Under the pieces are notes generated by a model, which did not search any database, was not told the origin of the DNA, and saw only the letters and a program-made list of their open reading frames with translations. Below are positions 16,524 through 35,521 of a DNA stretch of 64,000 nt, in pieces. The translations under genes and the position numbers were made by a program. Source of the stretch: a phage; sequence record PZ379177.1; one strand, written 5' to 3'. Each line of letters begins with the position of its first letter. Position 1 is the stretch's first letter.

Positions 16524-16525
16524 AT

Positions 16526-18498: not shown

Positions 18499-18509
18499 TA
18501 ACTTCCTCT

Positions 18510-19430: not shown

Positions 19431-19437
19431 AATGACC

Positions 19438-20289: not shown

Positions 20290-20290
20290 A

Positions 20291-22828: not shown

Positions 22829-23245
22829 ATGAGCACAACAATTGTATTTGTCGTCCTACACAACGGCGAAGTCGTTAACGTATGCGAATATGAAGAAATG
22901 GCAAAGGCCACTGCTGCGAGATACGAAGGTGCTACTATTGACCCGTGGATTTTAGATGCGCGCAGCGTCTTGCAGGCGACTTTAGATGAGTGGTTGTTGG
23001 GTCGCAAGGTCTATCCAGTAGACAACATCGACTCAATTCAAGGCGAAACAGTATACTTTGAAGATGAATGCGTTCGCGGCATCGGCAAATTTATGGGATT
23101 ATGTCCATCTTCATCCAAAAATAAATTTTATCGTATTCAAGTTGAAGAAAACGATATGTTTGACAAAGTCACGCGCTCGATTGTTCCTGGCGGCGGCACT
23201 CCAATCTTTATGGCAGAATCAGACATCAAGGGGATTATCAAATGA
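22829..23245 (+). CDS. Hypothetical protein (opposite-strand insert)
   Basis: 138-aa ORF with strong RBS (AAAGGAGATTGAAATG), convergent with terminase. Confidence 0.55.
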   Translation: MSTTIVFVVLHNGEVVNVCEYEEMAKATAARYEGATIDPWILDARSVLQATLDEWLLGRKVYPVDNIDSIQGETVYFEDECVRGIGKFMGLCPSSSKNKFYRIQVEENDMFDKVTRSIVPGGGTPIFMAESDIKGIIK

Positions 23246-23481
23246 GAACTTTAACCGAACTCGATGTTTTGAAAGATGTTGCAGCCGCGCTGGGCGTTGA
23301 AGTCTCCGAAAAGTCGACACTGGGTGCGTTGCGTCGCGATTTACTCGAAGCCGTCGACCGCAACGATTTTGATCGTAAGTGTTTGCAAAAGAAGATTCGA
23401 CAGGCAGTAAGGGCGGGTAAGCGATTCCGTGCCAGGTCGTTTGCCGCAAGAAAACTCGACCTTCAGCACGGAATGCTTTAA
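23242..23481 (+). CDS. Hypothetical basic protein
   Basis: 79-aa ORF overlapping the upstream stop (ATGA); Arg/Lys-rich C-terminus. Confidence 0.5.
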   Translation: MRTLTELDVLKDVAAALGVEVSEKSTLGALRRDLLEAVDRNDFDRKCLQKKIRQAVRAGKRFRARSFAARKLDLQHGML

Positions 23482-23484
23482 TTG

Positions 23485-24945
23485 TCAAAGGTTAGAGAAG
23501 AAGCCGGATGCTGCAACAATTGGTTTCATCAACGCCATGATTGCTGCGTCCGCTTTGTTAGGCGATTTGACTCCACGCTTTGCCATATCCTTTTTCGATT
23601 CAACTTTAAACTTACCAAGCACAGACGTGTCTTTGCGCGGCGCTGACATCTCAAAAAGAAATGTCTCAATTTCTTCCGCAGACCAAGCAGGAATCCCAAG
23701 TTCTGGAATGCCGTCTGTGTCGATGGAAATCAGCTCATCAGTCGGGTATACGGCCTGCCCTGTTGCATACTCATATGTCTTCCTGAATCGTTCGGCAATC
23801 TCAGTCCATTTTTGCGCTTTTATGTTTGCGAAATGGTCTTTATTGAGTATTTCAACGTGTGGTAACTCAAGGAAGACGTCATCAGGATCATCAACAGCAC
23901 CTTGCGCGTTGAACGCATTAAATTCGATTCTTGGGAATGTTGGATTTTCATGGATTGCATACTCATTAAGCTCATCAAATTTTGAACCAGCAAATGCACC
24001 AACACCGATGGCGTCATAGGTAATTGATGCGCCGAATGTTAATGCATCTTTCCAAACTCCGCTTGCGGACTTAAGCAATTCATCTTCCAGACCTTCCCAT
24101 GTCTTGATGCCGCGCAATACGTTGCCCGTGACAAATGCTGTGGCGTTTAAGTCGTCGCCGTCGTCTGCCACGTCAAAGCCTATGCGGTTAGACCCTGACA
24201 AGCTCCATCCCAGCGTAGGGTGTTTGTGTAGGTTTAGCGCGGCCTTGACGAATGCACGGTTTATGACAGACTTGTCGCCGCCTGTCTTCGGTACTCCGCC
24301 ATAAACGTGTTCTGCCTTTTTCGGGTCGCGCTCATACATGCCAGCAATAACGTCCAGCATTGTTTGCGACAAGAATGGATTGTCCTGCCAGTTAATCTTC
24401 TTAACGATGGCGTTCTTCGGCGGTCGCATGACAAAGTTCTGGTAGACGAAATCAGCCTCTTCATCAGGGTTAAATATGATCCATATTTCGGACCCTTCCT
24501 TACGAATTGTCGGCTCAATAATGTCCCACTGCTCTTCAGTCAGCGCGTGCGCTTCCTCAAGCCAAAGAACATCAACGCCTTCTGTTGATTTGATTTCGTC
24601 AACGTTGCGTGCAATACCGTAAAATAAAAATTCAGATTTTGTTCTTTTGTGTTCAATAGAGTTCTTTAATAAGTTGAACTCGTCTTTAAAATCAGAAATC
24701 TCTATTTTGTCTTTTAATAGCGTATATACTGATTCAGAAATCTTGTTCTGGAATTGTCGGACGCAAAGGAATTTTAATTTAAAGTTTGCCGCCAAATAAA
24801 TAGCAAAACCAGCGGCATCATGCGATTTGGAAGATGCACGACCGCCGTATATTACTTTGTATCGCGCTTTCGTCTTCCAGACTTCTCTTAAAGCAGGATT
24901 CAACTGGTACATGACTTTCCAATTATGTGTTAATATTTTATTCAT
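23485..24945 (-). CDS. terL: Terminase large subunit
   Basis: 486 aa. N-terminal Walker A-like VIYGGRASSKSHD, Walker B-like VLWLEEAH, C-terminal acidic nuclease-type region GFDVADDGDD. Adjacent to portal. Confidence 0.9.
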   Translation of the reverse strand: MNKILTHNWKVMYQLNPALREVWKTKARYKVIYGGRASSKSHDAAGFAIYLAANFKLKFLCVRQFQNKISESVYTLLKDKIEISDFKDEFNLLKNSIEHKRTKSEFLFYGIARNVDEIKSTEGVDVLWLEEAHALTEEQWDIIEPTIRKEGSEIWIIFNPDEEADFVYQNFVMRPPKNAIVKKINWQDNPFLSQTMLDVIAGMYERDPKKAEHVYGGVPKTGGDKSVINRAFVKAALNLHKHPTLGWSLSGSNRIGFDVADDGDDLNATAFVTGNVLRGIKTWEGLEDELLKSASGVWKDALTFGASITYDAIGVGAFAGSKFDELNEYAIHENPTFPRIEFNAFNAQGAVDDPDDVFLELPHVEILNKDHFANIKAQKWTEIAERFRKTYEYATGQAVYPTDELISIDTDGIPELGIPAWSAEEIETFLFEMSAPRKDTSVLGKFKVESKKDMAKRGVKSPNKADAAIMALMKPIVAASGFFSNL

Positions 24946-25063
24946 ATTATAGTTTGCTTGCGACAGCTATATCAAGTAAAATTATGATTCCAGCTTAGTA
25001 TTGGATAAAGGGTGATCTTTTCGGCCAGATTCTTTCTGGCCATTTTTTTATCAGGAGTAAATC

Positions 25064-25294
25064 ATGGCCCTAGTAAATATTCAACTCACTCCATCTTACA
25101 CTTCCGTTCTTTCTGTTGCTGAAAACGTATCAGGCGCACTTATTCAAGTTCGCGGCGGTGCCGCAGAGATCTGTTTCGAAGAAAAAGCCGATGACAAGTT
25201 GATCGGAATAGCAGTTGTTGGCACGGTCACAATCCCGCCAGGCGTTGAGATTTTCGCGAAAGGAAGCGGCACATTAGTCGTGTCTTCTCACTAA
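25064..25294 (+). CDS. Hypothetical protein
   Basis: 76-aa ORF with RBS CAGGAGTAAATCATG. Confidence 0.5.
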   Translation: MALVNIQLTPSYTSVLSVAENVSGALIQVRGGAAEICFEEKADDKLIGIAVVGTVTIPPGVEIFAKGSGTLVVSSH

Positions 25295-25383
25295 TCATTT
25301 GCCATGGACGGCATAAATTCACAAAAAGTTTGCCTTTCTGAAACTCTGCATTATAATCATATTAACTCAAAACCGGAGGTAAT

Positions 25384-25599
25384 ATGAAACTAATCGACCG
25401 CGCCATCAAAGTCATTGATAATCACTCCACCGCGCTTGCTTTCGTGATGGGATTTTGTTTCACTGCTGCGTTTGGCGACGTTCACACATTCAAGTCTGTC
25501 ATCTTGTGCTGGTCCATTTGGTCACTTATTTCTCTGGTTTTGATTCTTCCGATGACATGGCTTGTTCTTACTTGTCTGGAATCTCAAGGTGAAGACTGA
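25384..25599 (+). CDS. Small membrane protein (holin-like candidate)
   Basis: 71 aa, two predicted hydrophobic helices; RBS CCGGAGGTAATATG. Confidence 0.5.
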   Translation: MKLIDRAIKVIDNHSTALAFVMGFCFTAAFGDVHTFKSVILCWSIWSLISLVLILPMTWLVLTCLESQGED

Positions 25600-25820
25600 T
25601 GAGGCTATCAATCAAAGAGCGGGCAAAGCGACCCAAAAGGAGTGAGCCAAAGTCCAAATACACATGCATCGGCGGACCATTCGACGGTCAAGTGATGTGG
25701 CTTTCAAAATCTAATCCATCGACGGTTGAGTTCAGCCTTCATGGAATGCGCGGCAGATACCTGCTAAATAGAGAAACAAGTGGCAGTACATTCGTGGAGT
25801 GGAAAGAAAATGGCAAATGA
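25599..25820 (+). CDS. Hypothetical basic protein
   Basis: 73-aa ORF whose start overlaps the upstream stop. Confidence 0.45.
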   Translation: MRLSIKERAKRPKRSEPKSKYTCIGGPFDGQVMWLSKSNPSTVEFSLHGMRGRYLLNRETSGSTFVEWKENGK

Positions 25821-26043
25821 ATTGACTTTAACAGTACCAAAAGAAGTGCTAGACAAGGCATATGCAGATTCTGTAAAAGAATTGGCTGGAGTGCTTGGAA
25901 TTGAAAATGAATTCAACGTTCAGCTGCAATTCCTTAAGGATACTCTTCAGATTAAAGAGAACAGAGAGGCGGGAAGTGGTGCGCCTTTAGCTTTAGCAAT
26001 CCTCTATGCGGGACTTGTTTTGCAATCTGGAGATGAACTGTGA
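25810..26043 (+). CDS. Hypothetical protein
   Basis: Track ORF 25780-26043 trimmed to ATG 25810 (MANELTLTVPKEV...). Confidence 0.45.
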   Translation: MANELTLTVPKEVLDKAYADSVKELAGVLGIENEFNVQLQFLKDTLQIKENREAGSGAPLALAILYAGLVLQSGDEL

Positions 26044-26239
26044 ATCGTTGGTGCAGTTGGAAGTTGAAACGTCTCGCCTGGGCCAATGCCGCCAATTCTG
26101 CTGGCCCAATCACCGCTGGTGTTGGGTCGATATGGGATGGTGAGGGCCGTTGGGACTCGCTGTGTGGCACGCGCTTATTCTTTCGCGTAAAATAATATTC
26201 GCCCTTCCCACATCGGGAAGGGAATTTAAAGAGGTTATC

Positions 26240-26581
26240 ATGAACAACACTTTATCACAACTTCTAATATGGACCATCGCCGCTATCATCGGCACCGTTA
26301 TTATGATGTCAAGTGCAAAGGCCGATACGGATATTTGCGGCAGACTTATGTCTGAGAATGGCGAGATTTATTATGGCAACTCAAAAGGTGATTATATATC
26401 GACTGAAGTTTGCGCTCAGAAGAAAGCAGAAATGCAAAAGCAGTATCATGAAGATCAATCCATATCTCAGGCCGCGCTGATTGAATTAAGTATATCAGCC
26501 ATCATCTTTCTAATCGTTTTTATGCTCATTATTAAACCAAATAATGACAGCAACCGTCATATTCCTCTCAAAAGAAATTAA
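26240..26581 (+). CDS. Secreted/membrane-anchored protein
   Basis: Start set at ATG 26240 with RBS AAGAGG. N-terminal signal-like helix MNNTLSQLLIWTIAAIIGTVIMMSSAKA and a C-terminal hydrophobic helix. Confidence 0.5.
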   Translation: MNNTLSQLLIWTIAAIIGTVIMMSSAKADTDICGRLMSENGEIYYGNSKGDYISTEVCAQKKAEMQKQYHEDQSISQAALIELSISAIIFLIVFMLIIKPNNDSNRHIPLKRN

Positions 26582-26619
26582 GGCTATAATACGGTTGTCG
26601 ACAAAACGAGGACCGTAAA

Positions 26620-28962
26620 ATGCCAAGGCTAATATTCAAAAACAACTTTGAGGTCGCGCTCGCTCAGCCAACGACGACTTCAAACACCACAATCACAATT
26701 CGCTCAGGGTCGGGCTTTCCGACCTTGGGCGCAAACGAGCGTGTAGTGGCGACAATCGTTGACGCTGCAACAGGCCTCCAATTCGAAATCGTCACAGTAA
26801 CAGCCGTTGTTGGAAACGTCCTGACCGTGCAGCGTGCACAAGAAGGAACTGCAGCGCGTGCATGGGCAGCTGGCGATTTACTTTCCATTCGAACAACTGC
26901 CGCGACTTTGACGGGTACTGTCCGAAACTTTGGAGAGATTCCCTCAGGCATCAACCTTAATGCGCTTACTGGCAGCTGGTTCGGTCAGTATTATCAACCT
27001 TCTAGTGGCGCAGCATCAACTGCGCTTAATTACCCACTCCAATCGTCTGGCGTGCTGGAAGTAATTCAAATTTCAGCAAATGCTTGCTCACAAAAATACA
27101 CTACCACAGTAGGTTTTGAATATAATAGAACATTTGATGGCGCATCATGGTCACCTTGGAAGAGGGTTTATAGCGAACTCGATGTAATCCCAGTCTCCAA
27201 CGGTGGTACAGGTCAAACTACCATCCAAGGAATGAAGTCTGCTTTTGGATTCGGGCAAGTCGCTGATCAGAATATTGTTCCTACTTCGATGGGCGGCACA
27301 GGCTCAGCAGACAACGCTCAAGCATGGCTAAATATTCGTCCACAAGGCTCAACACCGCTTGCTGGCGACCCAGTTAACGACTATGATGCGACAACTAAGC
27401 GTTGGGTTGAGAACTTAGTTAACACAGGCACCGTTGGCCCAAGTATGAACGGCGTCATGAACTATGGTGTTGGTGATTTCCATCTTCGCAATAGTAGATC
27501 ATATATTCAGCAATACGAAGTCGTTGCAGACGGGCAATTACTAAACCGTGCTGACTGGCCTGAACTTTGGGCATATGCACAGATGCTTTCACCCATTGCA
27601 GATGCCGATTGGCTTGCGGATAAGTTCAAACGTGCAAAATATTCTTTAGGCAACGGAACAACGACATTCCGTGTCCCAGACCTTAACGGTGTCCAGACAG
27701 GTTCTGTACGGGCGCTGTATGGGCGCGGCGATGGCGGAAACTCCACTGCGAACGGTCAAATATTCGAATCTGCCGCGCCAAACATCACAGGCTCAGCCGC
27801 AGGTGTATCGGCAGGCACTTATGCGCAAATTTTTGGCACAGCCGTCCGAGGTGCTTTTTACACAAACAATGATTTGTACCCTCAAGGCGCTGGCGACACC
27901 ATACCTGTTGGAAGCGGTGCAGTAGAGGGTCGTCTCAATACAATAAATATTGATGCATCCAGATCAAGCCCGATTTATGGAGCAGCAACTGACGAAATCA
28001 TGGGCCGCAACTTTGTAGGCATTTGGGTTATTCGTGCATCGGGCGGATTTGTTGCCGCGAATACGCAATGGCAAGTTATCAATGCTGATGCTGTTCGCCC
28101 AGGGTCTGGAGTGAAGGCATCTTCTGGACAGGTAAAGGCACAATACAAAATTGGGACGACAGTTGAAGCAGAAGCAGGATTGCGAAGCGATGCATACATG
28201 GATGGTATGTATTACGCAATAATGTCTGTCTACAACAAAACAAAAGGTGTTACAAAGGAATTTGCATTTGGCGATGATGGAATGCTGAATGGTGACAGAT
28301 ACACTGCAAGATATGGCACATTGATGGCTTGGAGTGAGACTGGTACTAGAAGGGGAACATTCTCGATTGAGAACCAGTCACTTGCGGCGAACTATGCATT
28401 CAATAGTCTGCTCAGTGGTGGGCAATCGGTATCAGCAGGATATTATACTTCTACACACTTTGGCATGATTCACAATGACGGTGGAAGCTTTGCTCAATCG
28501 TGCTGGCACGTGGTTGGTGACGAAAACAACGGGTATGGTTGCCGATTGGCGATTCAACCAAACAACGATAACATATTCTTTTATCGTTGGGTGCCTGGTG
28601 ATACCGCTACTTATACACTTGCAAAGAATGCTGTGTCTGATGAAAGGCTTAAATCTGATATCACTGATGTCTCTGTTGATAAGGCTTGGGCGAATATTGC
28701 TGCGCTTAACTTTGTTAATTTCGTCTATAAGTCCGATGAACAGCAAAGGTTGCGGCGCGGCATCATAGCACAGCCTACAGAGTTAATTGAGCCTCTTTAT
28801 GTTAAAACTCGTAAATTTTACGACGACAACAATGTGCAACAAGAGCAAAAGGAGCTTGACACAACTCCAATGCTTCTTGACACGATGCACGTGGTTCAGG
28901 AGTTGATGAAAAAGGTTGAGTCACTAGAGGCAGAGATAGCCGCGCTGAAATCAGCAAAATAA
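26620..28962 (+). CDS. Tail fibre/spike with C-terminal intramolecular chaperone (peptidase S74-like) domain
   Basis: 780 aa. C-terminal motif SDERLKSDITDVS...GIIAQPTELIEPLYV followed by a coiled-coil, as in auto-cleaving fibre chaperone domains. Gly/Thr/Ser-rich shaft. Confidence 0.8.
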   Translation: MPRLIFKNNFEVALAQPTTTSNTTITIRSGSGFPTLGANERVVATIVDAATGLQFEIVTVTAVVGNVLTVQRAQEGTAARAWAAGDLLSIRTTAATLTGTVRNFGEIPSGINLNALTGSWFGQYYQPSSGAASTALNYPLQSSGVLEVIQISANACSQKYTTTVGFEYNRTFDGASWSPWKRVYSELDVIPVSNGGTGQTTIQGMKSAFGFGQVADQNIVPTSMGGTGSADNAQAWLNIRPQGSTPLAGDPVNDYDATTKRWVENLVNTGTVGPSMNGVMNYGVGDFHLRNSRSYIQQYEVVADGQLLNRADWPELWAYAQMLSPIADADWLADKFKRAKYSLGNGTTTFRVPDLNGVQTGSVRALYGRGDGGNSTANGQIFESAAPNITGSAAGVSAGTYAQIFGTAVRGAFYTNNDLYPQGAGDTIPVGSGAVEGRLNTINIDASRSSPIYGAATDEIMGRNFVGIWVIRASGGFVAANTQWQVINADAVRPGSGVKASSGQVKAQYKIGTTVEAEAGLRSDAYMDGMYYAIMSVYNKTKGVTKEFAFGDDGMLNGDRYTARYGTLMAWSETGTRRGTFSIENQSLAANYAFNSLLSGGQSVSAGYYTSTHFGMIHNDGGSFAQSCWHVVGDENNGYGCRLAIQPNNDNIFFYRWVPGDTATYTLAKNAVSDERLKSDITDVSVDKAWANIAALNFVNFVYKSDEQQRLRRGIIAQPTELIEPLYVKTRKFYDDNNVQQEQKELDTTPMLLDTMHVVQELMKKVESLEAEIAALKSAK

Positions 28963-28971
28963 TTCACTCAA

Positions 28972-28996
28972 GGCGCTGAAAAGCGCCTTTACTTTA
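28972..28996 (+). terminator. Putative rho-independent terminator after the tail fibre gene
   Basis: Hairpin GGCGCT-GAAA-AGCGCC followed by a T-rich tract. Confidence 0.45.
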
Positions 28997-29043
28997 TGCT
29001 CGATTAAGTTATACTCATTATACGTTAACAAGTGAGGTGGTTC

Positions 29044-29250
29044 ATGGAAATTAAAGTATTGTCCGATTTTGTGAAAAGTATCGAAGCCAAAGGCATGACA
29101 ATCAAGGCCAAAGGCAGTCTCGTTTGCATTGATAAGCAACAAAGCGATCAAAGTATATCACTTGATGATATCAAAACGATGCAAAAGCTCAATAAGAAAG
29201 GTGCTTTGCACGAGTTCTTAACGGATATTGGAGCAGTGGACAATGGATAA
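29044..29250 (+). CDS. Hypothetical protein
   Basis: Track ORF starts at GTG 29032; ATG 29044 preferred (MEIKVLSDF...) with RBS GAGGTGG. Confidence 0.45.
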   Translation: MEIKVLSDFVKSIEAKGMTIKAKGSLVCIDKQQSDQSISLDDIKTMQKLNKKGALHEFLTDIGAVDNG

Positions 29251-29341
29251 AGAGGCACGGCGCTTTGCATTTTGGGGCACGGTTTGTGTTGTCTCCCTGT
29301 TTGGGATAGTTTACGCAATCATTCATGCTGCTGCGGCATAA
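29243..29341 (+). CDS. Small hydrophobic peptide (32 aa)
   Basis: ATG overlaps the upstream stop (ATGGATAA); product MDKEARRFAFWGTVCVVSLFGIVYAIIHAAAA. Below the track cutoff. Confidence 0.3.
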   Translation: MDKEARRFAFWGTVCVVSLFGIVYAIIHAAAA

Positions 29342-29344
29342 ATT

Positions 29345-29740
29345 ATGATCATCGATATTGAAAAGGCGCTTAAGCGTGAACTGACACCAGGCGCAACTCC
29401 TGGTGAAGAAGCCTACTACCGACCAAAGTCGCAACGCACCAATGATATTCCGGTCGCCAAGCGTACAGTGAATAAAAACGGTCAGCGGTCGCGACCGCGC
29501 TCTATCCGGTCCGGTGAGAAGCTGAAAACGATTCGTCAGTGTCTACAACGCCTCGAAATCATGGGTTGTCGCGCTTATATCGACCCTGATGGAAAGGTTC
29601 TGGTGAGAATTGGCAATAGTACACAACTACAAGACGGATTGCCCTGCGGCGAATCCAGACCCATAGCCAAGACCGACCGTGTAGCTACTGGCCGCGAGAT
29701 TGAGGAAAGTTGGTTGGGTGCTTTCTTATTAAAATATTGA
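29345..29740 (+). CDS. Hypothetical basic protein
   Basis: 131-aa ORF, Arg/Lys-rich. Confidence 0.5.
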   Translation: MIIDIEKALKRELTPGATPGEEAYYRPKSQRTNDIPVAKRTVNKNGQRSRPRSIRSGEKLKTIRQCLQRLEIMGCRAYIDPDGKVLVRIGNSTQLQDGLPCGESRPIAKTDRVATGREIEESWLGAFLLKY

Positions 29741-29747
29741 GGATTAT

Positions 29748-29945
29748 GTGAATCAAAATGAATCAGTAGCATTCTTACAATGGCTGGAAGGTGTGGTGGA
29801 GTATTACGCTCCAAAAGACCGCTTCATCTTTCAAGGAAAAAGTTACAAGCGCAAAGGGCAGGCCCAGAAAGCAGCGCGTAAGTACTGGAAGGAAGTTTAT
29901 TCAGAGTTCTTTCAGCAGATGGGCAGCACAGTTGGTATCGATTGA
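29748..29945 (+). CDS. Hypothetical protein
   Basis: 65-aa ORF. Confidence 0.45.
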   Translation: MNQNESVAFLQWLEGVVEYYAPKDRFIFQGKSYKRKGQAQKAARKYWKEVYSEFFQQMGSTVGID

Positions 29946-30043
29946 TGAATGTTGATTTCGTGATGTTTTTGATCATATTGGCGATAAGTTCAGTATTTGT
30001 TGTCGCTATGATCGCGCTTATTGATTGGTTGGATAAATAAATC
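29945..30043 (+). CDS. Small hydrophobic peptide (32 aa)
   Basis: ATG overlaps the upstream stop (TGATG); product MNVDFVMFLIILAISSVFVVAMIALIDWLDK. Below the track cutoff. Confidence 0.3.
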
Positions 30044-30749
30044 GTGGTTTTGGTGATTTTGGTGATTTAACCGTGAATCGTGGGTCGCTGTGGCGGCCCT
30101 TTCTTTTGCCTGCCGCGCAGGAGTGTACTGCAAATTTACTGTGGGCACAAAATAGTACGGTACTGTCCAGGACTTTTTCTTTGAAAAGTTAGTGGACCAA
30201 ATGTGTCGTATTTTGATTAGTGTACTGCAAATTCCATCAAGTAGCAAAACGCACCAAAAGACCCATGCCATAAAAACCACACGAACGCAATAATCAATCG
30301 CCGTTACAGTTTCCAGCGTTACAATTCGAAAGCGAATGATTCGATGCATAATAATATGAAGCATAATGATTCGAAAGCTAATGATTGCGTGTAGGATAAT
30401 ATCGGTGGGGATTATTCTAGATGCATGTAATTTCGCATGCGTACTATTTTCGGACGAAGGGTCGGCATATTCCTCGTTTTAGTTCGGAACGAAGGGAAAG
30501 TTTTGCGCCTTTATAAAACAATGACTTACGCGACCCGCCCTAACGGTCCGATATAGGTGTCTATATAAAACAAGGACTTACGCGATGTTCTCCATTTAAC
30601 GTAATACCCGTTATGCGAACTAAGGCGCATCTCGACGAAGATTATGCGACGACGAAGGGAAGGATAAAGGAGTTTTCGCGGAGAAGCGCATCGAGATAGG
30701 GACGAAGAAAAGCCGCGACTAAGCGCGGCCTATTAGTAACGGAAGGGTA
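30040..30749. repeat. Long non-coding repeat-rich region
   Basis: No credible ORF. Contains tandem TGGTGATTT x2, GTGTACTGCAAAT at about 30124 and 30221, AATGATTCGAAAGC-like x2, ACGAAGG x4, and TATAAAACAA(T/G)GACTTACGCGA twice (30510-30535, 30561-30587). Confidence 0.6.
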
Positions 30750-31040
30750 TTATAAGGAAACGATTTTAAAGAAAGAGTAACGGCCTTCGCCTTCGGATAC
30801 CGCGAGATATTCGCCGCCGAACTCCGTAGCAAAATAAACCTTGCCTTCGATAGTAACGCGGAAGGTAGAAATATCTTCCTCTTCGAGTTCCGTAAATTCG
30901 CTAAAATCGATAGGACTATGAAGCTCCTCGATAGTCGCATCTACGTTAAAGAGATAAACGTTTTTAAGTTTTTCGCCAAATACGTTAGAGTTTTCGGAAG
31001 TTTCGGCGCGAGCGTTACGGATAGCGGCTAAAGTAATCAT
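30750..31040 (-). CDS. Small acidic early protein B (96 aa)
   Basis: Preceded by the conserved leader ...CCCAACTAGGAGATTATTATG and promoter cassette B. Acidic product. Leu codons TTA/CTC/CTT; TG/CA dinucleotides depleted. Confidence 0.55.
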   Translation of the reverse strand: MITLAAIRNARAETSENSNVFGEKLKNVYLFNVDATIEELHSPIDFSEFTELEEEDISTFRVTIEGKVYFATEFGGEYLAVSEGEGRYSFFKIVSL

Positions 31041-31099
31041 AATAATCTCCTAGTTGGGTCGGGAGGGTAGCGACCTATTCGCTACCTCATCCCCTCTCG

Positions 31100-31137
31100 A
31101 TATAAAACATTATAGTCTTAGTGTACGAAGAAGTAAA
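31100..31137 (-). promoter_or_regulatory. Sigma70-like promoter, cassette B
   Basis: In gene sense: TTTACT - 17 nt - TATAAT, followed by TTTTATATCGAGAGGGG, a stem-loop (GTAGCGAATAGGTCGCTAC) and the conserved RBS. Confidence 0.55.
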
Positions 31138-31148
31138 GCACTTTTTCA

Positions 31149-31451
31149 TTATTCTGCGATAAAATATTTATAAGCTTTATCGCCTTCTACGTCGATATAC
31201 TCGACGATAATTAACGCTTCGCCGCGAGGCGTAACCGTCTCGATAAGGGTAACGGCTTCGTCGTCGGTCTTCGCGAAGCGGATGGCGCTACGTTCGGCAT
31301 ACTTCATATCGTCGAAGGAAAGGCCGATGAAGGCGACCGCGCGGACCTTAATGGCGCTAGATTCTAGTTCCGCGTTAACGGCGGCGATAAGAGAGCGAAC
31401 AGTTAAGCGGTCTTCGTCGTAAGTAAGGATGGAAGAGATTAAAGTAGTCAT
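31149..31451 (-). CDS. Small acidic early protein C (100 aa)
   Basis: Track ORF 31149-31508 trimmed to ATG 31451 (MTTLISSIL...), which follows the conserved GGGAGCTTTATTATG leader; preceded by promoter cassette C. Confidence 0.55.
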   Translation of the reverse strand: MTTLISSILTYDEDRLTVRSLIAAVNAELESSAIKVRAVAFIGLSFDDMKYAERSAIRFAKTDDEAVTLIETVTPRGEALIIVEYIDVEGDKAYKYFIAE

Positions 31452-31497
31452 AATAAAGCTCCCGATGCTAGTAGAAGAAAGGGCCATCGCCCGTCTC

Positions 31498-31535
31498 GAT
31501 ATAAACAAGTATACGCGAGTGTACGAAGAAGTAAA
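31498..31535 (-). promoter_or_regulatory. Sigma70-like promoter, cassette C
   Basis: In gene sense: TTTACT - 16 nt - TATACT, followed by TGTTTATATCGAGACGGG. Confidence 0.5.
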
Positions 31536-31579
31536 GAAAAAAGATAAAATAATTTATCGCATTTTTATCTAAAAAGTGC

Positions 31580-31615
31580 TTTACTTTTTTCTACACTATA
31601 TTATAATGTACTCAT
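31580..31615 (+). promoter_or_regulatory. Sigma70-like promoter, cassette A
   Basis: TTTACT (31580-31585) - 16 nt - TATAAT (31602-31607), followed by CTCATATCGGGACGGG, stem-loop GTTAACGAATAGGTCGTTAAC and CCCAACTAGGAGTTTATTATG. Confidence 0.55.
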
Positions 31616-31675
31616 ATCGGGACGGGATGAGTTAACGAATAGGTCGTTAACGCCTCTCCCAACTAGGAGTTTATT

Positions 31676-31990
31676 ATGGCTATCGTTACCCGCTTTACCC
31701 TCGAAAACGCAACCGCCGAAGTCCAGGGCGTTACGCTTACTTACGGCGAAATTCTCGCTAAATTCTCCGGCGTTCGCTTAGGCGAAGAAATTAACGACGC
31801 GACGGTAATCGAGCAACTCGCTGCTTCTCGCTTAGAGCGCGACGAAAACGGATTCTTCGAAGTCGATGCGGAATTAAATTTATGCGGTAAAACGGCGTTT
31901 ATTAACGAGTTCGAACTCGCCGTTTTAGTTAATTACGATAGCAAAGCTTACGCCTTCGCCCTCGAATTAATCGAAGACGACGAAGAGTAA
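31676..31990 (+). CDS. Small strongly acidic early protein A (104 aa), DNA-mimic-like candidate
   Basis: First gene after promoter cassette A. Product has many Glu/Asp and ends ELIEDDEE. No CTG or TTG Leu codons. Confidence 0.55.
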   Translation: MAIVTRFTLENATAEVQGVTLTYGEILAKFSGVRLGEEINDATVIEQLAASRLERDENGFFEVDAELNLCGKTAFINEFELAVLVNYDSKAYAFALELIEDDEE

Positions 31991-32070
31991 GAGAGGATTT
32001 TTAGAGCGTCGTGCGCGGCGCTTTAATAAAATTCTTTCGCGCCTAGCGCCCTAACAAATAGGAGTTTATT

Positions 32071-32697
32071 ATGGTTAGCTTAAATCGCTTTTCTACTAGC
32101 GGCGACGTTATCGCAACTAAGACCGCCGACCTCGTTGCATTCTATAATGCAAATTCCGGCTCAAAACCGATTAAGAAGTTTGCGGACCGCCGGACCGCCG
32201 AGACTCGCGTAATCGCGTTAATCGAGTCCTTAAACGCGCTCGATGCGCCGTCCAACGAGTCGCCCATCCCCGACGCGAAGGCGCGCGAGGAAGTGTCCAG
32301 CGATGTAAAAACTCATAAGGCGCGTGCGGTCGTTAAAAAGGCTGAGCCGACCCAGGAAGAACTCGACGCGATGACCGACGAAGAATATGAAGCCTTCGTT
32401 AAGAGCGGTTTAAATGATAGTGCAAATTGCGTAGTGCAAAATGGAACTCCTTCCCATCGCCGTTCGAATAGCGAAGGTATTGCAAAAAGCTGGGATAATA
32501 AGGAAGTGGCGCAAAAGCGTCTCACCCGTAACGGTGTCATGGTCGAGGGTGTAGGCGAGTTCAAATCGGTCCGCGTAGCGTTCGCTGCGCTGGGATTACC
32601 GGATAGCAAGCACATTCGCTTCCGCATGAAGCTTAAGGAAGCTGGGCGCTTGAACTTCGAGTTCGGCAACAAGTCCTACACCTTCCAGATTATCTAA
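32071..32697 (+). CDS. Hypothetical protein
   Basis: 208 aa; RBS context AATAGGAGTTTATTATG resembles cassette A. Contains two in-frame TAGTGCAAA repeat copies. Confidence 0.55.
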   Translation: MVSLNRFSTSGDVIATKTADLVAFYNANSGSKPIKKFADRRTAETRVIALIESLNALDAPSNESPIPDAKAREEVSSDVKTHKARAVVKKAEPTQEELDAMTDEEYEAFVKSGLNDSANCVVQNGTPSHRRSNSEGIAKSWDNKEVAQKRLTRNGVMVEGVGEFKSVRVAFAALGLPDSKHIRFRMKLKEAGRLNFEFGNKSYTFQII

Positions 32698-32747
32698 TAG
32701 AATGGCGGCCCTTCGGGGTCGCTTTTCATAGTGCAAATTGGTGGCTT

Positions 32748-33011
32748 ATGAATACGCTCATTCTCATCGCTACGTTATCCATCGGAAGTGGTCGCACCTT
32801 ATCCCTTTACGACCATAGTGCAAATTGCGCTTATCCTACGCGCGTTGCGGCGATAGTTAATAGTGCAAATAAGATGCTATTCGAGACTTGCTGGCGGGTC
32901 GATAACGAGAAAGGTCGGGTAGTCTTAGGTTATAGTGCAAATCTGCTGGTGGAGTCGTTCGATTGGACGGTTGAAGGTCGTAAATTGTTACGGAAAGTGA
33001 CTAAAAGATGA
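32748..33011 (+). CDS. Hypothetical protein (iteron-encoded SAN repeats)
   Basis: 87-aa ORF. Three in-frame TAGTGCAAA copies give HSANC, NSANK and YSANL. Could be a reading frame imposed by the repeats rather than a functional protein. Confidence 0.4.
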   Translation: MNTLILIATLSIGSGRTLSLYDHSANCAYPTRVAAIVNSANKMLFETCWRVDNEKGRVVLGYSANLLVESFDWTVEGRKLLRKVTKR

Positions 33012-33125
33012 CTTATAATAATACACTTTCTAACGCGTTTATGGTTGTAACCTTCCCCGTCGTATTACCGATGGCCCTAGAAGTGGAGAAAATGTGTTCT
33101 AGGGCCGTTTTATAGTGCAAATTGG

Positions 33126-33614
33126 CTAGTGGCGGGAGAATTGCTCACCTTCTTTGGCCGCCTCTCCAAAATCCTTGTAGAAATCGTCCATGGAACGGCC
33201 CATTTTACTATTGCCGTTTTCATCAATCATCGTGATGCCGTAGATGATATTCAGTTCACGAATAGCATTAAGTTTGGCTGACGCCGCGACTTCTGGATCA
33301 CGCACAAGCTTGACCAAATTGTGAATTGCACCTTTTACGCTCCACAAATCCTTGAGTGGCATCTCTTCCATACGCTTTTTGAAGCGCATCTTGTAGTATG
33401 GATTGCGTTGCGCGCAAAGGATTCGCTGGCCAGTGTAGTTATCCGTTGCAACTTCCATTCCAAATACTAGTGCAAAAGCTGCGCGCATGTCATGGCCCTG
33501 AATAACAAGGTCAATGAACTCATCGAATAAAGCCTGATTGTGCTCTGCAAATCGCGGGTCTTCAAAGTCTTCAGGCATCGCTACATAATCTTGACTCATA
33601 GTGCAAAATCCCAT
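33126..33614 (-). CDS. Hypothetical protein, possible helix-turn-helix DNA-binding protein
   Basis: 162-aa ORF whose start codon lies within an iteron copy (reverse complement TTTGCACTATG). A small-terminase-like role is speculative. Confidence 0.45.
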   Translation of the reverse strand: MGFCTMSQDYVAMPEDFEDPRFAEHNQALFDEFIDLVIQGHDMRAAFALVFGMEVATDNYTGQRILCAQRNPYYKMRFKKRMEEMPLKDLWSVKGAIHNLVKLVRDPEVAASAKLNAIRELNIIYGITMIDENGNSKMGRSMDDFYKDFGEAAKEGEQFSRH

Positions 33615-33699
33615 AGTGCAAATTAATAGTGTGAATTATACAATGGATGGACATTATATTCAAGTGCAGATTGATGTTCATTATGGCTATAAACGTACA

Positions 33700-34110
33700 C
33701 AAATCATAGTGCTGAATGGATAACGGACCGTGGTGCGTGGTGTACTGTTTGATACGGATAAAAGAAATCCATCCCTTTCGCCGCTTGTTATGCAAATCAA
33801 TGACTTAGCCGCTGCTGGCTGGTTTAAGCGTATCATGACGTATCATCCGTATTGCCGCAAGTCTTTGTTTTTACTTATATCTTACGGATAATACGTTAAA
33901 TATATAAATTAACATAAGTATGAGGATGTAGAAAAAAAATTAATTTAAATTAATTCAAAATGGAGTTAATTAATTTTTGAAATAATTCTGGTTACAATAA
34001 GGAAAAATGGCGTATCATCCGTATCATCCGTAAGATTCAGTGTACAAATCCAGGCGCGGCGCACCCTAGCGCCATGATACGGATAAAAACCTATCCGTAA
34101 GAGTGTACGC
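33700..34110. repeat. TACGGAT-family repeat module, copy 2
   Basis: About 8 direct and inverted copies of GATACGGAT/ATCCGTATC flanking an AT-rich core (GAAAAAAAATTAATTTAAATTAATTC...). Shares the exact 29-mer CGTATCATCCGTATCATCCGTAAGATTC with the module at 18.2 kb. Confidence 0.75.
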
Positions 34111-34415
34111 TTCAATTAAAGAATCCAGGCGCGGCGCGGCTTTCACCACCACACACCACGGTTCACTCTCCAAAATCCGCACACTAAATTCCAAAATCCA
34201 ATGCTCATACTCCAAAAATAAATCCAAATTTCCATTTTATTTATTATTTTCATCCACAATATACTAAATTCTATCCGTATTAACCACGACTCAACCCACC
34301 ACGATTCATGCCAATCACTTCAAAATTTCCATCGAAAACGACAAAAGGCCGCGTAAAGCGACCAATTGCACACATTCCATTATTCAAAACACGTAAACGA
34401 GTGTTCTTTTATCCA

Positions 34416-34955
34416 CTATAATTTAGGCATCAATCCCTTTTCCGTTCTCCTTTTTATCTCGTCTTCTATCATTTTATTGGTCACTCTATAGCCAATCCTT
34501 TCCAATTCCATTAATACTTCCTTTTGGTATTTTCTTATTTTCACAATGTCAACCGTATCCCTCCAATAAGATAATACCTTCTTAATGACTGACTTTTCCA
34601 TTTTATATCTGGCGGTAGTCATATACTTCATTTTAAAAATAGAGTTGATCGCATCAGTCTTTAACCATTCCTTTCTTAATTCAGGATGATCATTCCAAAG
34701 AGTAATGGCGAACTCCTGCGGACTTTTGCACCTGCTTTGAAGCTCCTTTATATAGTCAGCCGTTTTTACTTTTCTATCTAAACGCGCGCGGCAAACGGTG
34801 CACTCTTCCTTGAGCAACCAATCGGCCTTCTTATCAATTTGCAAAGTTGAATTGCCATCCCTTTTATACCTGCCGCAAAAGCTTATGCCTTCATCTTTTA
34901 AGAAGTAATGCAACTCTTTAGAGTATTTCGCTTTACGCCAAAAGCCTCCCATCAC
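34416..34955 (-). CDS. Hypothetical early protein
   Basis: 179-aa ORF; Cys-containing, basic. Confidence 0.5.
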   Translation of the reverse strand: MMGGFWRKAKYSKELHYFLKDEGISFCGRYKRDGNSTLQIDKKADWLLKEECTVCRARLDRKVKTADYIKELQSRCKSPQEFAITLWNDHPELRKEWLKTDAINSIFKMKYMTTARYKMEKSVIKKVLSYWRDTVDIVKIRKYQKEVLMELERIGYRVTNKMIEDEIKRRTEKGLMPKL

Positions 34956-35521
34956 CCCTCCTTAACTACCCGATAAGCAACAACGTCCCAAGCTTCTCCG
35001 TGGTGATCCCAATGCAAAACACTCGAGTGAATTTGATCATTGCCACGTTCGCCGTTACGCATTTTGAATTCAACCATTTCCCCAGGCACCGGATTATCGC
35101 CACCAAACCACACGGTCCACGCTTCCTCCTTCGGCGCATCAGAATCCACGCCTATAGTAGCAACGACGTCATGCAACTGCTTAACGAGCGCCGACGCATC
35201 ACGGACTTGTGAGCGTAATGCAACCAACTCGCGTTGCACTTCACTGTATTTCGCTTCCAGCGCGGCATAATCAGCAAACTTCACATATGAACCAGAGGTG
35301 TCATCACCCTCTGTATTGAGCCATGCATCATTGCAGTTTACTGCATACGTTTTAACTTCACCGCATTTCGGCTCAAGCGCGACGCGACTTTTTACTTCAC
35401 TGTATTTCGCTTCCAGCGCGGCATAGTCCTCATATTCAACATAGCCGCCTTCATCATCCTTTACAACTTCGCATGTGCAAGCGTGCTGCGTGCAATAATC
35501 AACATCATAACGTTGTATCAT
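34952..35521 (-). CDS. Hypothetical early protein with internal tandem duplication
   Basis: 189 aa; contains YEDYAALEAKYSEVK and FADYAALEAKYSEVQ, encoded by a 30-bp exact DNA repeat. Confidence 0.5.
   Translation of the reverse strand: MIQRYDVDYCTQHACTCEVVKDDEGGYVEYEDYAALEAKYSEVKSRVALEPKCGEVKTYAVNCNDAWLNTEGDDTSGSYVKFADYAALEAKYSEVQRELVALRSQVRDASALVKQLHDVVATIGVDSDAPKEEAWTVWFGGDNPVPGEMVEFKMRNGERGNDQIHSSVLHWDHHGEAWDVVAYRVVKEG

What the first reader, a model, noticed from the sequence alone, without database searches (positions are those of the whole stretch)
30040..30750. 700-bp ORF-free region with several repeat families
No credible ORF lies between the last plus-strand small gene and the leftward early gene B. 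The region holds tandem TGGTGATTT, two GTGTACTGCAAAT copies, two AATGATTCGAAAGC-like copies, four ACGAAGG copies and two copies of TATAAAACAA(T/G)GACTTACGCGA about 52 bp apart. The composition matches the CG/TA-rich early island. It could encode small RNAs, hold binding sites, or be a genome-end-proximal region.
Basis: seen in the sequence. Interest (0 to 1): 0.45.

Follow-up and report, generated by a model that had tools for sequence, protein, structure and literature searches.

The report
Phage terminal-repeat boundary with binding-site repeats
This gene-free, repeat-filled stretch is where the unique part of a Wifcevirus (E. coli phage) genome meets its 3.7-kb direct terminal repeat, so it holds one physical end of the packaged DNA and most likely the protein-binding sites used to cut it; it is an ordinary kind of feature, but nobody has mapped it in detail in this group.

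Summary
Window 30041-30749 has no credible ORF, and its repeats exceed chance (0 of 500 shuffles).

The window is a Wifcevirus, about 94% identical to WFH, WFC, ECML-117 and Mansfield. Four independent relatives, two of them mapped with PhageTerm, end their ~3.7-kb direct terminal repeat (DTR) at the same sequence. That sequence lies at window 30256|30257. The DTR therefore spans 30257-33961, and the finding straddles its inner end.

Convergent intrinsic terminators (30082-30108 on +, 30731-30702 on -) bracket about 600 bp. This block is present in 18 of 18 relatives at 93-99% identity, while the flanking genes are mosaic.

There is no Rfam hit, no unusual folding and no codon-position signal, so the small-RNA and coding readings get no support.

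The TATAAAACAANGACTT box has four copies in 64 kb. All four lie in the two ORF-free regions at the DTR ends. A homolog of the phage E217 small terminase is encoded inside the DTR.

Best reading: a transcription-insulated end-processing (terminase cutting) region. Its architecture resembles T5 Repeat Region 3, but it lacks DnaA boxes and any sequence homology to it.

Side finding: the region runs into a 2-kb block of early genes almost free of CA/TG, GATC and 6-bp palindromes.

The parts
30051..30068 (+). Tandem TGGTGATTT x2. It is a genome-specific deletion scar and not a conserved element.
   Evidence: relatives carry a 23-nt insert between the two halves and a 381-nt gene upstream that this genome lacks.
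30073..30086 (+). Heptamer pair GTGAATC-GTGGGTC, a variable-number tandem repeat next to the terminator.
   Evidence: Mansfield carries a 35-nt insert here, i.e. five extra GTGGGTC units; SP13, F13 and Bas99 carry one extra unit.
30082..30108 (+). Intrinsic terminator that ends the rightward (tail-fibre and small-gene) transcripts.
   Evidence: 7-bp stem, 6 GC pairs, T run. It is annotated as a terminator in WFH and WFC. The stem is conserved and the loop varies among relatives.
30122..30136 (+). 15-mer AGTGTACTGCAAATT, copy 1, on the unique side 121-135 bp outside the DTR end.
   Evidence: unique to this region. Identical in 15 of 18 genomes.
30154..30164 (.). Palindrome AGTAC-G-GTACT.
   Evidence: Invariant in 18 of 18 genomes.
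30172..30189 (.). Inverted repeat ACTTTT-N6-AAAAGT. The DTR end deposited for phage WFC falls at its centre (30175|30176).
   Evidence: Invariant in 18 of 18 genomes.
30219..30233 (+). 15-mer AGTGTACTGCAAATT, copy 2, 24-38 bp outside the DTR end.
   Evidence: Identical in 15 of 18 genomes.
30256..30257 (.). Inner end of the direct terminal repeat, which is the right physical terminus of virion DNA (...CGCACCA | AAAGACCC...). The DTR runs from 30257 to 33961.
   Evidence: The same boundary sequence is found in WFH, Mansfield (PhageTerm), Ro157lw (PhageTerm) and SP13. The 24 nt around it are identical in 15 of 18 genomes. The 50-nt bin 30250-30299 is 98.3% identical across relatives.
30315..30404 (+). 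Two tandem 45-bp AT-rich units carrying AATGATT x3 and TTCGAA x2. This is the most variable part of the region.
   Evidence: family D1. Bas100 lacks exactly one unit. Each unit is identical in only 3 of 18 genomes.
30421..30442 (+). Hairpin ATGCATG-N6-CATGCGT. It is not conserved and is probably not functional as a structure.
   Evidence: It is altered in 14 of 18 relatives.
30440..30496 (+). Direct repeat pair CG.(A/T).TA(T)TT(C)GGA-ACGAAGGG, 35 bp apart. These are two of the five (G/A)ACGAAG boxes.
   Evidence: (families D2 and D4). The second copy is invariant in 18 of 18 genomes.
30509..30585 (+). Two D3 boxes, TATAAAACAANGACTTACGCGA, 52 bp apart, reading inward from the DTR end.
   Evidence: The 50-nt bin 30550-30599 is 99.2% identical. 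Related boxes occur only at 33793-33805 (+) and 33860-33872 (-) near the other DTR end.
30611..30707 (+). Further direct repeats: TTATGCGA x2 (30611, 30642), GCGCATC x2 (30625, 30686) and GACGAAG x3 (30634, 30651, 30701).
30702..30731 (-). Intrinsic terminator of the leftward early 96-aa gene.
   Evidence: 8-bp stem, 6 GC pairs. Annotated in WFH, WFC and Mansfield. Identical in 16 of 18 genomes.
33126..33614 (-). Small terminase (TerS) homolog encoded inside the DTR. It is the candidate binding protein for the terminal repeats.
   Evidence: Pseudomonas phage E217 TerS (PDB 7UXE), E = 6e-34. Mansfield annotates its ortholog as TerS.
33615..34415 (.). The ORF-free, repeat-rich region at the other DTR end. 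The cut lies at 33961|33962, inside an AT-rich palindrome.

Best explanation
The region is the junction between unique phage DNA and the inner end of a ~3.7-kb direct terminal repeat. During replication the genome exists as concatemers that hold one repeat copy between successive unique parts.

The packaging enzyme must cut exactly at 30256|30257 to make the right end of one virion genome, and at 33961|33962 to make the left end of the next. The repeat is copied in between.

Two convergent intrinsic terminators stop transcription from both sides, so the ~600 bp between them is a quiet zone. The conserved short repeats on both sides of the cut are binding sites for the end-processing machinery. 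The most likely binder is the small terminase encoded in the same repeat. These repeats are the 15-mers and two small palindromes on the unique side, and the D3 boxes, the ACGAAG boxes and others on the repeat side.

Shown: the position of the repeat end in relatives, the terminators, the lack of coding or RNA signal, the conservation, and the confinement of the D3 box to the two ends.

Inferred: that terminase binds these repeats and that they direct the cut.
For: - The window is a Wifcevirus.
- The DTR end falls at an identical sequence in four records. Two of those ends were determined from read starts with PhageTerm.
- The region is present in 18 of 18 relatives at 93-99% identity. Coverage upstream drops to 0.2-0.7, and identity of the adjacent gene drops to 71-76%.
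- The longest invariant stretches include the cut +/-12 nt, the two palindromes and the D3/D4 boxes.
- The convergent terminators are seen.
- The repeats are far above chance and local to this region.
- The D3 family (TAAAWCAANGACT, up to 1 mismatch) gives 4 hits in 64 kb against 0.83 expected. All four lie in the two terminal ORF-free regions.
- The copy at the left end is kept in every relative that reaches that end.
- A TerS homolog lies inside the DTR.
- Of the 18 CA/TG dinucleotides left in the purged stretch 30400-30749, 12 lie inside the repeats or palindromes. This suggests those sequences are constrained.
Against: - No reads or virion DNA exist for this genome, so the terminus is placed only by homology.
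- WFC's deposited DTR ends 81 bp further out, at 30175|30176.
- The two cut sites share no obvious motif at the cut itself.
- E217 TerS showed no appreciable DNA binding in vitro (review PMC9611059).
- The 45-bp units are variable and one is dispensable in Bas100.
- No relative more distant than about 89% was found, so conservation cannot be separated from recent common ancestry as cleanly as one would like.
Confidence: 0.6

Rival explanations
1. Leading-end entry-control region, working like T5. The right DTR end enters the cell first. The repeats act as an injection pause or stop, or as a docking signal, so that only the restriction-site-free early module is exposed and expressed before the rest of the genome follows.
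For: - The architecture matches T5 Repeat Region 3. That region is untranslated, lies mostly inside the terminal repeat, overruns into unique DNA, is more conserved than the repeat's ORFs, and is packed with direct repeats and palindromes.
- Here about 450 bp lie inside the DTR and about 150-200 bp outside it.
- The adjacent 2-kb early block is purged of CA/TG, GATC and 6-bp palindromes.
- The DTR has no EcoKI, EcoAI, EcoRI or EcoRV sites but has 5 EcoP1I sites in both orientations.
- Published phenotypes say Wifceviruses resist all tested RM systems except EcoP1_I.
- The purged block abuts the right DTR end, whereas the 900 bp at the left end (TerS) has ordinary composition.
Against: - There are no DnaA boxes in the region.
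- There is no sequence similarity to T5.
- No A1/A2-like proteins were recognised.
- No experiment shows staged entry in Wifcevirus or which end leads.
- This reading is compatible with, and not exclusive of, the terminase reading.
Confidence: 0.15
2. The region encodes one or more small non-coding RNAs, for example regulators of early or late genes, transcribed from internal promoters.
For: - The region is highly conserved without coding potential.
- Three weak sigma-70-like matches (9 of 12) lie on the + strand at 30265-30400, and a terminator-like hairpin lies at 30421-30442.
Against: - No Rfam family matched at E <= 1, apart from a chance histone stem-loop hit outside the region.
- Folding energy is no better than shuffles on either strand.
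- The best of 170 local windows has z = -2.8.
- The hairpin is changed in 14 of 18 relatives without compensation.
- The promoter count in the scanned span is not above expectation (6 against 4.2 +/- 2.0).
Confidence: 0.07
3. Replication origin. The iteron-like direct repeats together with the AT-rich 45-bp units would serve as initiator binding sites and an unwinding element.
For: - Several families of same-strand direct repeats are present.
- An AT-rich tandem duplication lies at 30315-30404.
- The zone is free of transcription.
Against: - No DnaA boxes are present.
- The AT-rich units are the least conserved part, and one is deleted in Bas100.
- The repeat spacings (15, 30, 35, 45, 52, 60 bp) are not those of a regular iteron array.
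- The replication genes lie far away.
- The D3 box recurs at the other genome end, which fits end biology better than an origin.
Confidence: 0.06
4. Functionless spacer: debris from recombination between gene modules that looks conserved only because the sequenced phages are close relatives.
For: - All known homologs are at least 89% identical.
- The left edge carries a deletion scar and a variable heptamer array.
- The region sits between mosaic modules.
Against: - The region is kept in 18 of 18 genomes while both flanks are swapped or diverged to 71-76%.
- Invariant blocks of 22-34 nt alternate with variable ones.
- The repeats are far above chance.
- The D3 box is shared with the other end.
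- The DTR end maps inside it.
Confidence: 0.07

Closest known systems
Bacteriophage T5 Repeat Region 3 / injection stop signal (iss) region at the inner end of the left terminal repeat
   Same: - Both involve a long (multi-kb) direct terminal repeat carrying the earliest genes.
- Both have an untranslated block bounded by terminators and a convergent gene, lying mostly inside the repeat and overrunning into unique DNA (T5: 9194-10409 with the repeat end at 10139).
- Both are packed with direct repeats, inverted repeats and palindromes.
- Both are better conserved than the repeat's ORFs.
- T5's terminal repeat also differs in CpG content from the rest of the first 30 kb.
   Different: - There is no sequence similarity.
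- There are no DnaA boxes.
- The block is about 0.6-0.7 kb here against 1.2 kb in T5.
- No A1/A2 homologs were found.
- Two-step transfer has not been shown for Wifcevirus.
- T5 lacks the CA/TG purge.
T7/T3 concatemer junction (terminal repeat flanked by the short-repeat arrays SRL/SRR, pacB, hairpin-primed duplication). This description comes from my own knowledge of Dunn & Studier 1983 and Chung & Hinkle 1990 and was not checked here.
   Same: - Both have defined, non-permuted ends with a direct terminal repeat.
- Both have arrays of short direct repeats next to the repeat boundary.
- Both have small palindromes just outside the repeat that could prime its duplication.
   Different: - The T7 repeat is 160 bp and carries no genes.
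- T7 RNA polymerase transcribes across and pauses in the junction, whereas here terminators keep transcription out.
- The terminase families differ.
pac and cos sites with repeated small-terminase boxes flanking the cut (P1 pac hexamers, SPP1 pacL/pacR, lambda cosB R sites). This description comes from my own knowledge.
   Same: Several copies of short motifs lie on both sides of a defined cleavage position. The gene for the small terminase lies nearby.
   Different: - Those phages package by headful or cohesive-end mechanisms without a multi-kb exact repeat.
- No binding data exist here.
- The TerS gene lies near the other DTR end, about 3 kb away.
DTR annotation of Escherichia phage Mansfield (MK903282) and relatives
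   Same: It is the same locus, at 95.6% identity. The record annotates the 3,673-bp DTR whose end aligns to window 30256|30257.
   Different: Neither the record nor its announcement describes the repeats, the terminator bracket, the shared terminal box or the compositional island.

Membership tests
Direct-terminal-repeat boundary (non-permuted DTR genome, T5-like long DTR class) | The sequence on one side of the boundary is present at both ends of virion DNA (read-start peaks, doubled coverage or duplicated record ends). | tested here: met
   This is met by homology only. WFH (3701 bp), Ro157lw and SP13 carry the repeat at both record ends, and Mansfield and Ro157lw were called by PhageTerm. 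All four end at the sequence found at window 30256|30257. No reads exist for this genome itself.
Direct-terminal-repeat boundary (non-permuted DTR genome, T5-like long DTR class) | The other boundary of the repeat is present at the expected distance, with unique DNA beyond it. | tested here: met
   The DTR start of WFH maps to window 33961, 3705 bp from 30257. The window continues into the right-end unique sequence, as expected for a collapsed or concatemer-type assembly.
Direct-terminal-repeat boundary (non-permuted DTR genome, T5-like long DTR class) | Terminase cleaves at the boundary and the local repeats are required for this. | not testable with these tools
   This needs packaging or transduction assays and TerS binding assays.
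T5 iss / Repeat Region 3 | An untranslated, repeat- and palindrome-rich block at the inner end of a long terminal repeat that straddles the repeat end. | tested here: met
   for this window; for T5.
T5 iss / Repeat Region 3 | The block is conserved more strongly than the ORFs of the terminal repeat. | tested here: met
   93-99% identity against 71-76% for the adjacent gene, and partial presence of other neighbours.
T5 iss / Repeat Region 3 | Paired DnaA boxes (TTWTNCACA) inside inverted repeats. | tested here: not met
   4 boxes in 64 kb, none between 27865 and 52822.
T5 iss / Repeat Region 3 | Sequence homology to the T5 region, and A1/A2-type pre-early genes in the repeat. | tested here: not met
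   There is no significant blastn match to T5 1-30000. Pfam gives no hit and PHROGs gives only families of unknown function for the DTR proteins.
T5 iss / Repeat Region 3 | Two-step DNA transfer that stops at this site. | not testable with these tools
   This needs entry-kinetics experiments.
Bacterial or phage small RNA gene | Its own promoter and terminator, a conserved secondary structure, or membership of a described RNA family. | tested here: not met
Iteron-type replication origin | A regular iteron array with an adjacent conserved AT-rich unwinding element and host-factor boxes. | tested here: inconclusive
   Direct repeats and an AT-rich duplication exist. However, the spacing is irregular, the AT-rich part is the least conserved, and there are no DnaA boxes.

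The most novel reading that the evidence does not exclude
The region is the control end of a 'leading' module. Packaging would start near the TerS-proximal left end, so the right DTR end (30257) would be packaged last and injected first. The conserved repeats would then pause or anchor the entering DNA, so that only the adjacent ~2-kb early block is exposed. That block has been purged of CA/TG, GATC and palindromes and encodes three small acidic proteins. This would be a T5/T7-like staged entry combined with an unusually radical motif-avoidance strategy. It could explain why Wifceviruses resist every tested RM system except EcoP1_I, whose sites (AGACC) are the ones the DTR retains.
Probability: 0.18. 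Interest if true: 0.7.

Novelty: new member of a known kind. Interest (0 to 1): 0.38.

Why it matters
How long direct terminal repeats are cut and duplicated is still unsolved; the Ro157lw paper says so, citing Casjens and Gilcrease.

Wifceviruses are small, fast-growing coliphages that can now be grown on E. coli K-12 derivatives. A base-level map of the conserved elements at both repeat ends gives concrete targets for packaging and entry experiments. Those elements are the terminator bracket, the 15-mers, the palindromes and the shared terminal box.

The practical value is immediate. Anyone who re-opens, engineers or reboots these genomes needs the true ends. Many deposited records are arbitrarily permuted, and some annotate spurious small ORFs here.

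The adjoining motif-purged early block is the more surprising thing and may bear on how these phages escape restriction.

Tried and rejected
- Rfam scan of 28500-32500 at E <= 1: nothing relevant.
- tRNA/tmRNA scan: none.
- Whole-region and sliding-window RNA folding on both strands: no excess stability.
- Codon-position test and ORF integrity across 18 genomes: no coding signal.
- Search for more distant homologs:
  - IMG/VR with the 96-aa neighbour protein returned only WFC and FEC19.
  - A metagenome scan with the D3 pattern returned six close relatives and one chance hit, L031.
  - Covariation analysis was therefore not worthwhile.
- Shared motif at the two cut sites: k-mer and blastn-short comparison of the two ORF-free regions gave only near-chance 8-10-mers apart from the D3 core.
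- DnaA boxes: none.
- Pfam and PHROGs on ten neighbouring proteins: no informative function.
- PDB sequence searches: only TerS hit.
- A single-sequence AlphaFold model of the 104-aa acidic protein was poor (pLDDT 64.7; the other four models about 37), and Foldseek against the PDB gave nothing at E <= 0.001. The DNA-mimic idea is therefore untested.
- D3 as a promoter: rejected. It has no -35 partner, only four copies exist genome-wide, and none lies in front of the structural operons.
- D3 as a mini-CRISPR or solitary repeat: considered and dropped. From my own recollection it bears no resemblance to the E. coli repeats.
- Literature searches for CA/TG depletion in phage early regions found nothing relevant.
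- Lokareddy 2022 (E217 terminase) is not held in the library.
Full report
**Identity of the window.** A 3-kb query around the finding matches 29 phage records at about 90-95% identity. All are Wifcevirus myophages of E. coli or Shigella, including WFH, WFC, ECML-117, FEC19, Mansfield and Bas98-101. The window runs in reverse orientation relative to most of these records. The 711-bp finding alone matches the same 29 records at 89-98% identity over at least 95% of its length.

**The observation.** Between the stop of a 32-aa + strand ORF (30040) and the stop of a leftward 96-aa gene (30750) there is no credible ORF. Across 18 aligned genomes there are 110 variable columns between 30100 and 30745. 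None of the seven small ORFs shows an excess of third-position changes. The only long ORF (124 aa, minus strand) runs through a terminator. It counted as intact in none of the 18, but the test also failed the window's own row, so the count is uninformative. It crosses frame-breaking indels at about 30080, 30113, 30211 and 30255.

- Three exact ACGAAGG copies exist, not four. The wider box (G/A)ACGAAG occurs five times on the + strand.
- The 'AATGATTCGAAAGC-like' pair is a 45-bp tandem duplication.

Repeats are far above chance. There are 15 surplus 10-mers against 0.40 +/- 0.83 in dinucleotide-preserving shuffles, and 0 of 500 shuffles reach that number. The 15-mer and the 22-mer are unique to this region within the 64 kb.

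The tandem TGGTGATTT is not a conserved element. Relatives have 23 nt between the two halves and a 381-nt gene upstream that this genome lacks, so it marks a deletion.

**What the region is.** The Mansfield record annotates a 3,673-bp direct terminal repeat predicted by PhageTerm. WFH, WFC, Ro157lw and SP13 are deposited with the repeat at both ends. I compared record ends:
- WFH has an exact 3,701-bp repeat and WFC an exact 3,784-bp repeat.
- The last 40 nt of the Ro157lw and SP13 records map into the homologous intergenic region.
- Ro157lw's ends were also called by PhageTerm as a T5-like long DTR.

WFH, Mansfield, Ro157lw and SP13 all end at the same sequence, which in window orientation reads ...CGCACCA | AAAGACCCATGCC.... 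This places the boundary between 30256 and 30257. The start of the repeat maps to 33961, so the DTR is 30257-33961. The window then continues into the right-end unique DNA, as expected for an assembly that collapsed the two copies. WFC's deposited repeat ends 81 bp further out, at 30175|30176, in the centre of the inverted repeat ACTTTT-N6-AAAAGT. I cannot tell whether this is real.

The finding is therefore the junction of unique DNA (30041-30256) with the inner end of the DTR (30257-30749), and it contains one physical genome end.

**Anatomy.**
- A + strand intrinsic terminator (stem 30082-30099, T run to 30108) ends the tail-fibre and small-gene transcripts.
- A - strand terminator (30731-30710, T run to about 30702) ends the early 96-aa gene. 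Both are annotated in relatives.
- Between them lie about 600 bp with no convincing promoter. The scan found 6 sigma-70-like matches in 2.2 kb against 4.2 +/- 2.0 expected, and the three inside the region score only 9 of 12.
- On the unique side: two exact 15-mers AGTGTACTGCAAATT (24-38 bp and 121-135 bp from the cut), the palindrome AGTAC-G-GTACT, and the inverted repeat ACTTTT-N6-AAAAGT. The last two are invariant in 18 of 18 genomes.
- On the DTR side:
  - CGTTACA(G/A)TT x2.
  - Two AT-rich 45-bp units.
  - A cluster of six 6-bp palindromes at 30325-30440.
  - Two 22-nt repeats ending in ACGAAGGG.
  - The two D3 boxes, 52 bp apart.
  - TTATGCGA x2, GCGCATC x2 and further GACGAAG boxes.

**Conservation.** I projected 18 relatives onto the window in 50-nt bins.
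- The block 30100-30749 is present in all of them at 92.6-99.2% identity. The peaks are at the cut (30250-30299, 98.3%) and at the second D3 box (30550-30599, 99.2%).
- The flanks are mosaic. Coverage falls to 0.19-0.77 just upstream, and the adjacent early gene is only 71-76% identical over 200 bp.
- The most variable part inside the region is the pair of 45-bp units. Bas100 lacks exactly one of them.
- No relative below about 89% identity could be found in IMG/VR or in the metagenome scan. Covariation tests therefore have no power.

**RNA and coding readings.** Rfam gives nothing. Folding the 611 nt gives z = -0.12 on the + strand and +0.58 on the - strand. The best of 170 local windows has z = -2.8. 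The one terminator-like internal hairpin is altered in 14 of 18 relatives. I therefore reject the small-RNA reading as unsupported, though only RNA-seq can exclude it.

**A motif shared by the two genome ends.**
- The D3 core AAACAANGACTTRC has a third exact match at 33857-33870 on the minus strand. That is about 92-105 bp from the left DTR end. Only 0.32 hits with up to one mismatch are expected in the whole window.
- This copy is present in every relative whose fetched locus reaches that end.
- With the slightly wider pattern TAAAWCAANGACT and up to one mismatch there are four hits in 64 kb: 30514+, 30566+, 33793+ and 33860-. The expectation is 0.83, and 1 of 100 shuffles reaches four. All four lie in the two ORF-free regions at the DTR ends.
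- Both right-end copies and the best left-end copy read inward from their nearest end.
- A weaker match (19 nt, 2 mismatches, E = 0.07) lies about 370 bp upstream of the TerS gene of the distant Salmonella relative PCSE1, in a non-coding stretch full of ATATCG and TATAACG repeats. This is suggestive only.

The other DTR end is also embedded in an ORF-free, repeat-rich region (33615-34415). It carries a TATCCGTA/TACGGATA family and two AATCCAGGCGCGGCGC copies. The cut lies between the arms of an AT-rich inverted repeat, AAAAATTAATT (33935-33945) and AATTAATTTTT (33968-33978).

**The likely binding protein.** The 162-aa product of 33126-33614 (-), inside the DTR, matches the small terminase of Pseudomonas phage E217 (PDB 7UXE) at E = 6e-34. 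Mansfield annotates its ortholog as TerS. E217 TerS did not bind DNA appreciably in vitro, which is a caveat.

**Best explanation.** This is a transcription-insulated end-processing region. Terminase cuts the concatemer at 30256|30257, guided by the conserved repeats on both sides, and the repeat is duplicated during packaging.
- Shown: the boundary in relatives, the terminators, the non-coding and non-structured nature, the conservation, and the terminal confinement of the D3 box.
- Inferred: binding by terminase and a causal role for the repeats.

**Comparison with known systems.** The closest architectural match is T5 Repeat Region 3. It is an untranslated 1.2-kb block, mostly in the left terminal repeat, that overruns 270 bp into unique DNA. 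It is packed with direct and inverted repeats and palindromes and is better conserved than the repeat's ORFs. It is thought to contain the injection stop signal (Davison preprint; T5 record).

Membership fails on two tested features. There are no DnaA boxes, and there is no sequence homology or recognisable A1/A2 genes. The region may therefore work like T5's, but it is not a member of that family. T7's junction with its SRL/SRR arrays, and pac or cos sites with repeated TerS boxes, are looser analogues. Those comparisons come from my own knowledge.

**A compositional island that begins inside the finding.**
- Strand-symmetric observed/expected values for 30257-33050, against the rest of the window: CA/TG 0.48 against 1.18, CG 1.90 against 1.09, TA 1.15 against 0.66.
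- In the core (about 30400-32400) there are only 0-7 CA+TG per 100 bp, against 9-19 in the neighbouring DNA.
- The purge sets in about 50-150 bp inside the DTR end. The unique side of the finding is ordinary.
- Sense-strand CA and TG are equally depleted (0.12-0.27) in genes of both orientations, and in intergenic DNA. The cause therefore acts on DNA, not on codons or on one RNA strand.
- The three core proteins almost lack His, Gln, Cys and Trp.
- Every trinucleotide containing CA or TG is depleted. CAG/CTG falls to 0.10; ATG/CAT is the least depleted at 0.60.
- The early promoters there use TTTACT as the -35 element.
- The purge holds in 13 of 13 relatives, in gene-B alleles only 73% identical, and in most accessory genes absent from this genome: four of five tested have CA/TG o/e of 0.21-0.53 and one has 0.86. 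It is therefore tied to position and is actively maintained.
- It is absent next to TerS in Salmonella PCSE1 and Pseudomonas Pa193.
- T5's terminal repeat shows raised CpG but no CA/TG loss.

Beyond CA/TG, the core has:
- 0 GATC against 8.7 expected from its own dinucleotide composition;
- 25 six-bp palindromes against 52.1 +/- 7.2 expected.

The window has no GATC from 30011 to 33295.

The DTR has no EcoKI, EcoAI, EcoRI or EcoRV sites but five EcoP1I sites in both orientations. [quoted passage not shown]

Three small acidic proteins (pI 4.1-4.8) are encoded in the core. Their function could not be determined. I found no paper describing this island.

These facts suggest, but do not show, that the early block is a restriction-evasive leading module and that the finding lies at its outer edge. 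That is the basis of the novel reading.

**Verdict.** The finding is real and is explained. It is the DTR/unique junction of a Wifcevirus, with candidate end-processing sites. The DTR itself is already annotated in a relative. The element map, the shared terminal box and the link to the purged island are new but incremental. Interest is moderate to low for the finding itself and higher for the neighbouring island.

Noticed in passing
window about 30400-32400 (wider: 30257-33050): An early-gene block inside the DTR is almost free of CA/TG dinucleotides. Strand-symmetric o/e is 0.48 against 1.18 elsewhere, and the core has 0-7 CA+TG per 100 bp, with compensating CG and TA excess. The effect is strand-symmetric and present in coding and non-coding DNA. 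The proteins almost lack His, Gln, Cys and Trp. It is maintained in 13 of 13 relatives, in 73%-identical gene-B alleles, and in four of five accessory segments tested. I found no description of it in the searchable literature.
   Followed up: partly
window 30011-33295; DTR 30257-33961: The same block has no GATC (0 against 8.7 expected) and half the expected 6-bp palindromes (25 against 52). The DTR lacks EcoKI, EcoAI, EcoRI and EcoRV sites but keeps five EcoP1I (AGACC) sites in both orientations. This matches the published phenotype: resistance to all tested RM systems except EcoP1_I.
   Followed up: partly
window 33615-34415: The other DTR end (cut at 33961|33962) also lies in an ORF-free, repeat-rich region. 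It has many TATCCGTA/TACGGATA copies in both orientations, AATCCAGGCGCGGCGC x2 and CCAAAATCC-type repeats. An inverted repeat AAAAATTAATT / AATTAATTTTT brackets the cut. GC skew is strongly negative (-0.35) at 34001-35000.
   Followed up: partly
window 33126-33614 (-): The small terminase homolog (E217 TerS, PDB 7UXE, E = 6e-34) is encoded inside the terminal repeat, far from the large terminase. It has an ordinary composition, unlike the rest of the DTR.
   Followed up: partly
window 30750-31040 (-), 31149-31508 (-), 31676-31990 (+): Three small acidic proteins (pI 4.4, 4.8 and 4.1) in the purged core have no Pfam, PHROG-function or PDB match. They are candidates for DNA-mimic or anti-defence proteins. 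The single-sequence AlphaFold model was too poor to test this.
   Followed up: partly
window 31023-31169 and 31547-31694: The divergent early promoter and leader regions are inverted copies of each other, at about 77-79% identity over about 150 nt. Their promoters have the form TTTACT-N16/17-TATAAT, and these stretches are 97-99% conserved among relatives.
   Followed up: no
window 30175|30176 against 30256|30257: WFC's deposited terminal repeat is 81 bp longer than that of WFH, Mansfield, Ro157lw and SP13. It ends in the centre of an invariant inverted repeat. WFC and Bas99 carry a SNP 12 nt inside the common cut site.
   Followed up: no
window 30073-30086; L001 (Mansfield) about 4600-4640: A GTGGGTC heptamer next to the + strand terminator varies in copy number. 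Mansfield has five extra units, and SP13, F13 and Bas99 have one extra.
   Followed up: no
window tiles starting 48349, 17776 and 34840: Other 711-bp tiles hold even more repeated 10-mers than the finding (33, 29 and 26 against 15 for the finding itself). The one at about 48-49 kb coincides with an AT-skew spike of 0.37.
   Followed up: no
L032 (phage T5, AY587007) 1-10139 against 10140-30000: T5's left terminal repeat has CpG o/e of about 1.0-1.6 against about 0.4-1.0 in the following 20 kb. A compositional step at a long-DTR boundary is therefore not unique to Wifcevirus.
   Followed up: no
L034 (Salmonella phage PCSE1) 350-720: The non-coding region upstream of the TerS gene of this distant relative is packed with ATATCG, TATAACG and GATATAAC repeats. 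It also contains one D3-like box (TAAATCAACGACT, minus strand, 446-458).
   Followed up: partly
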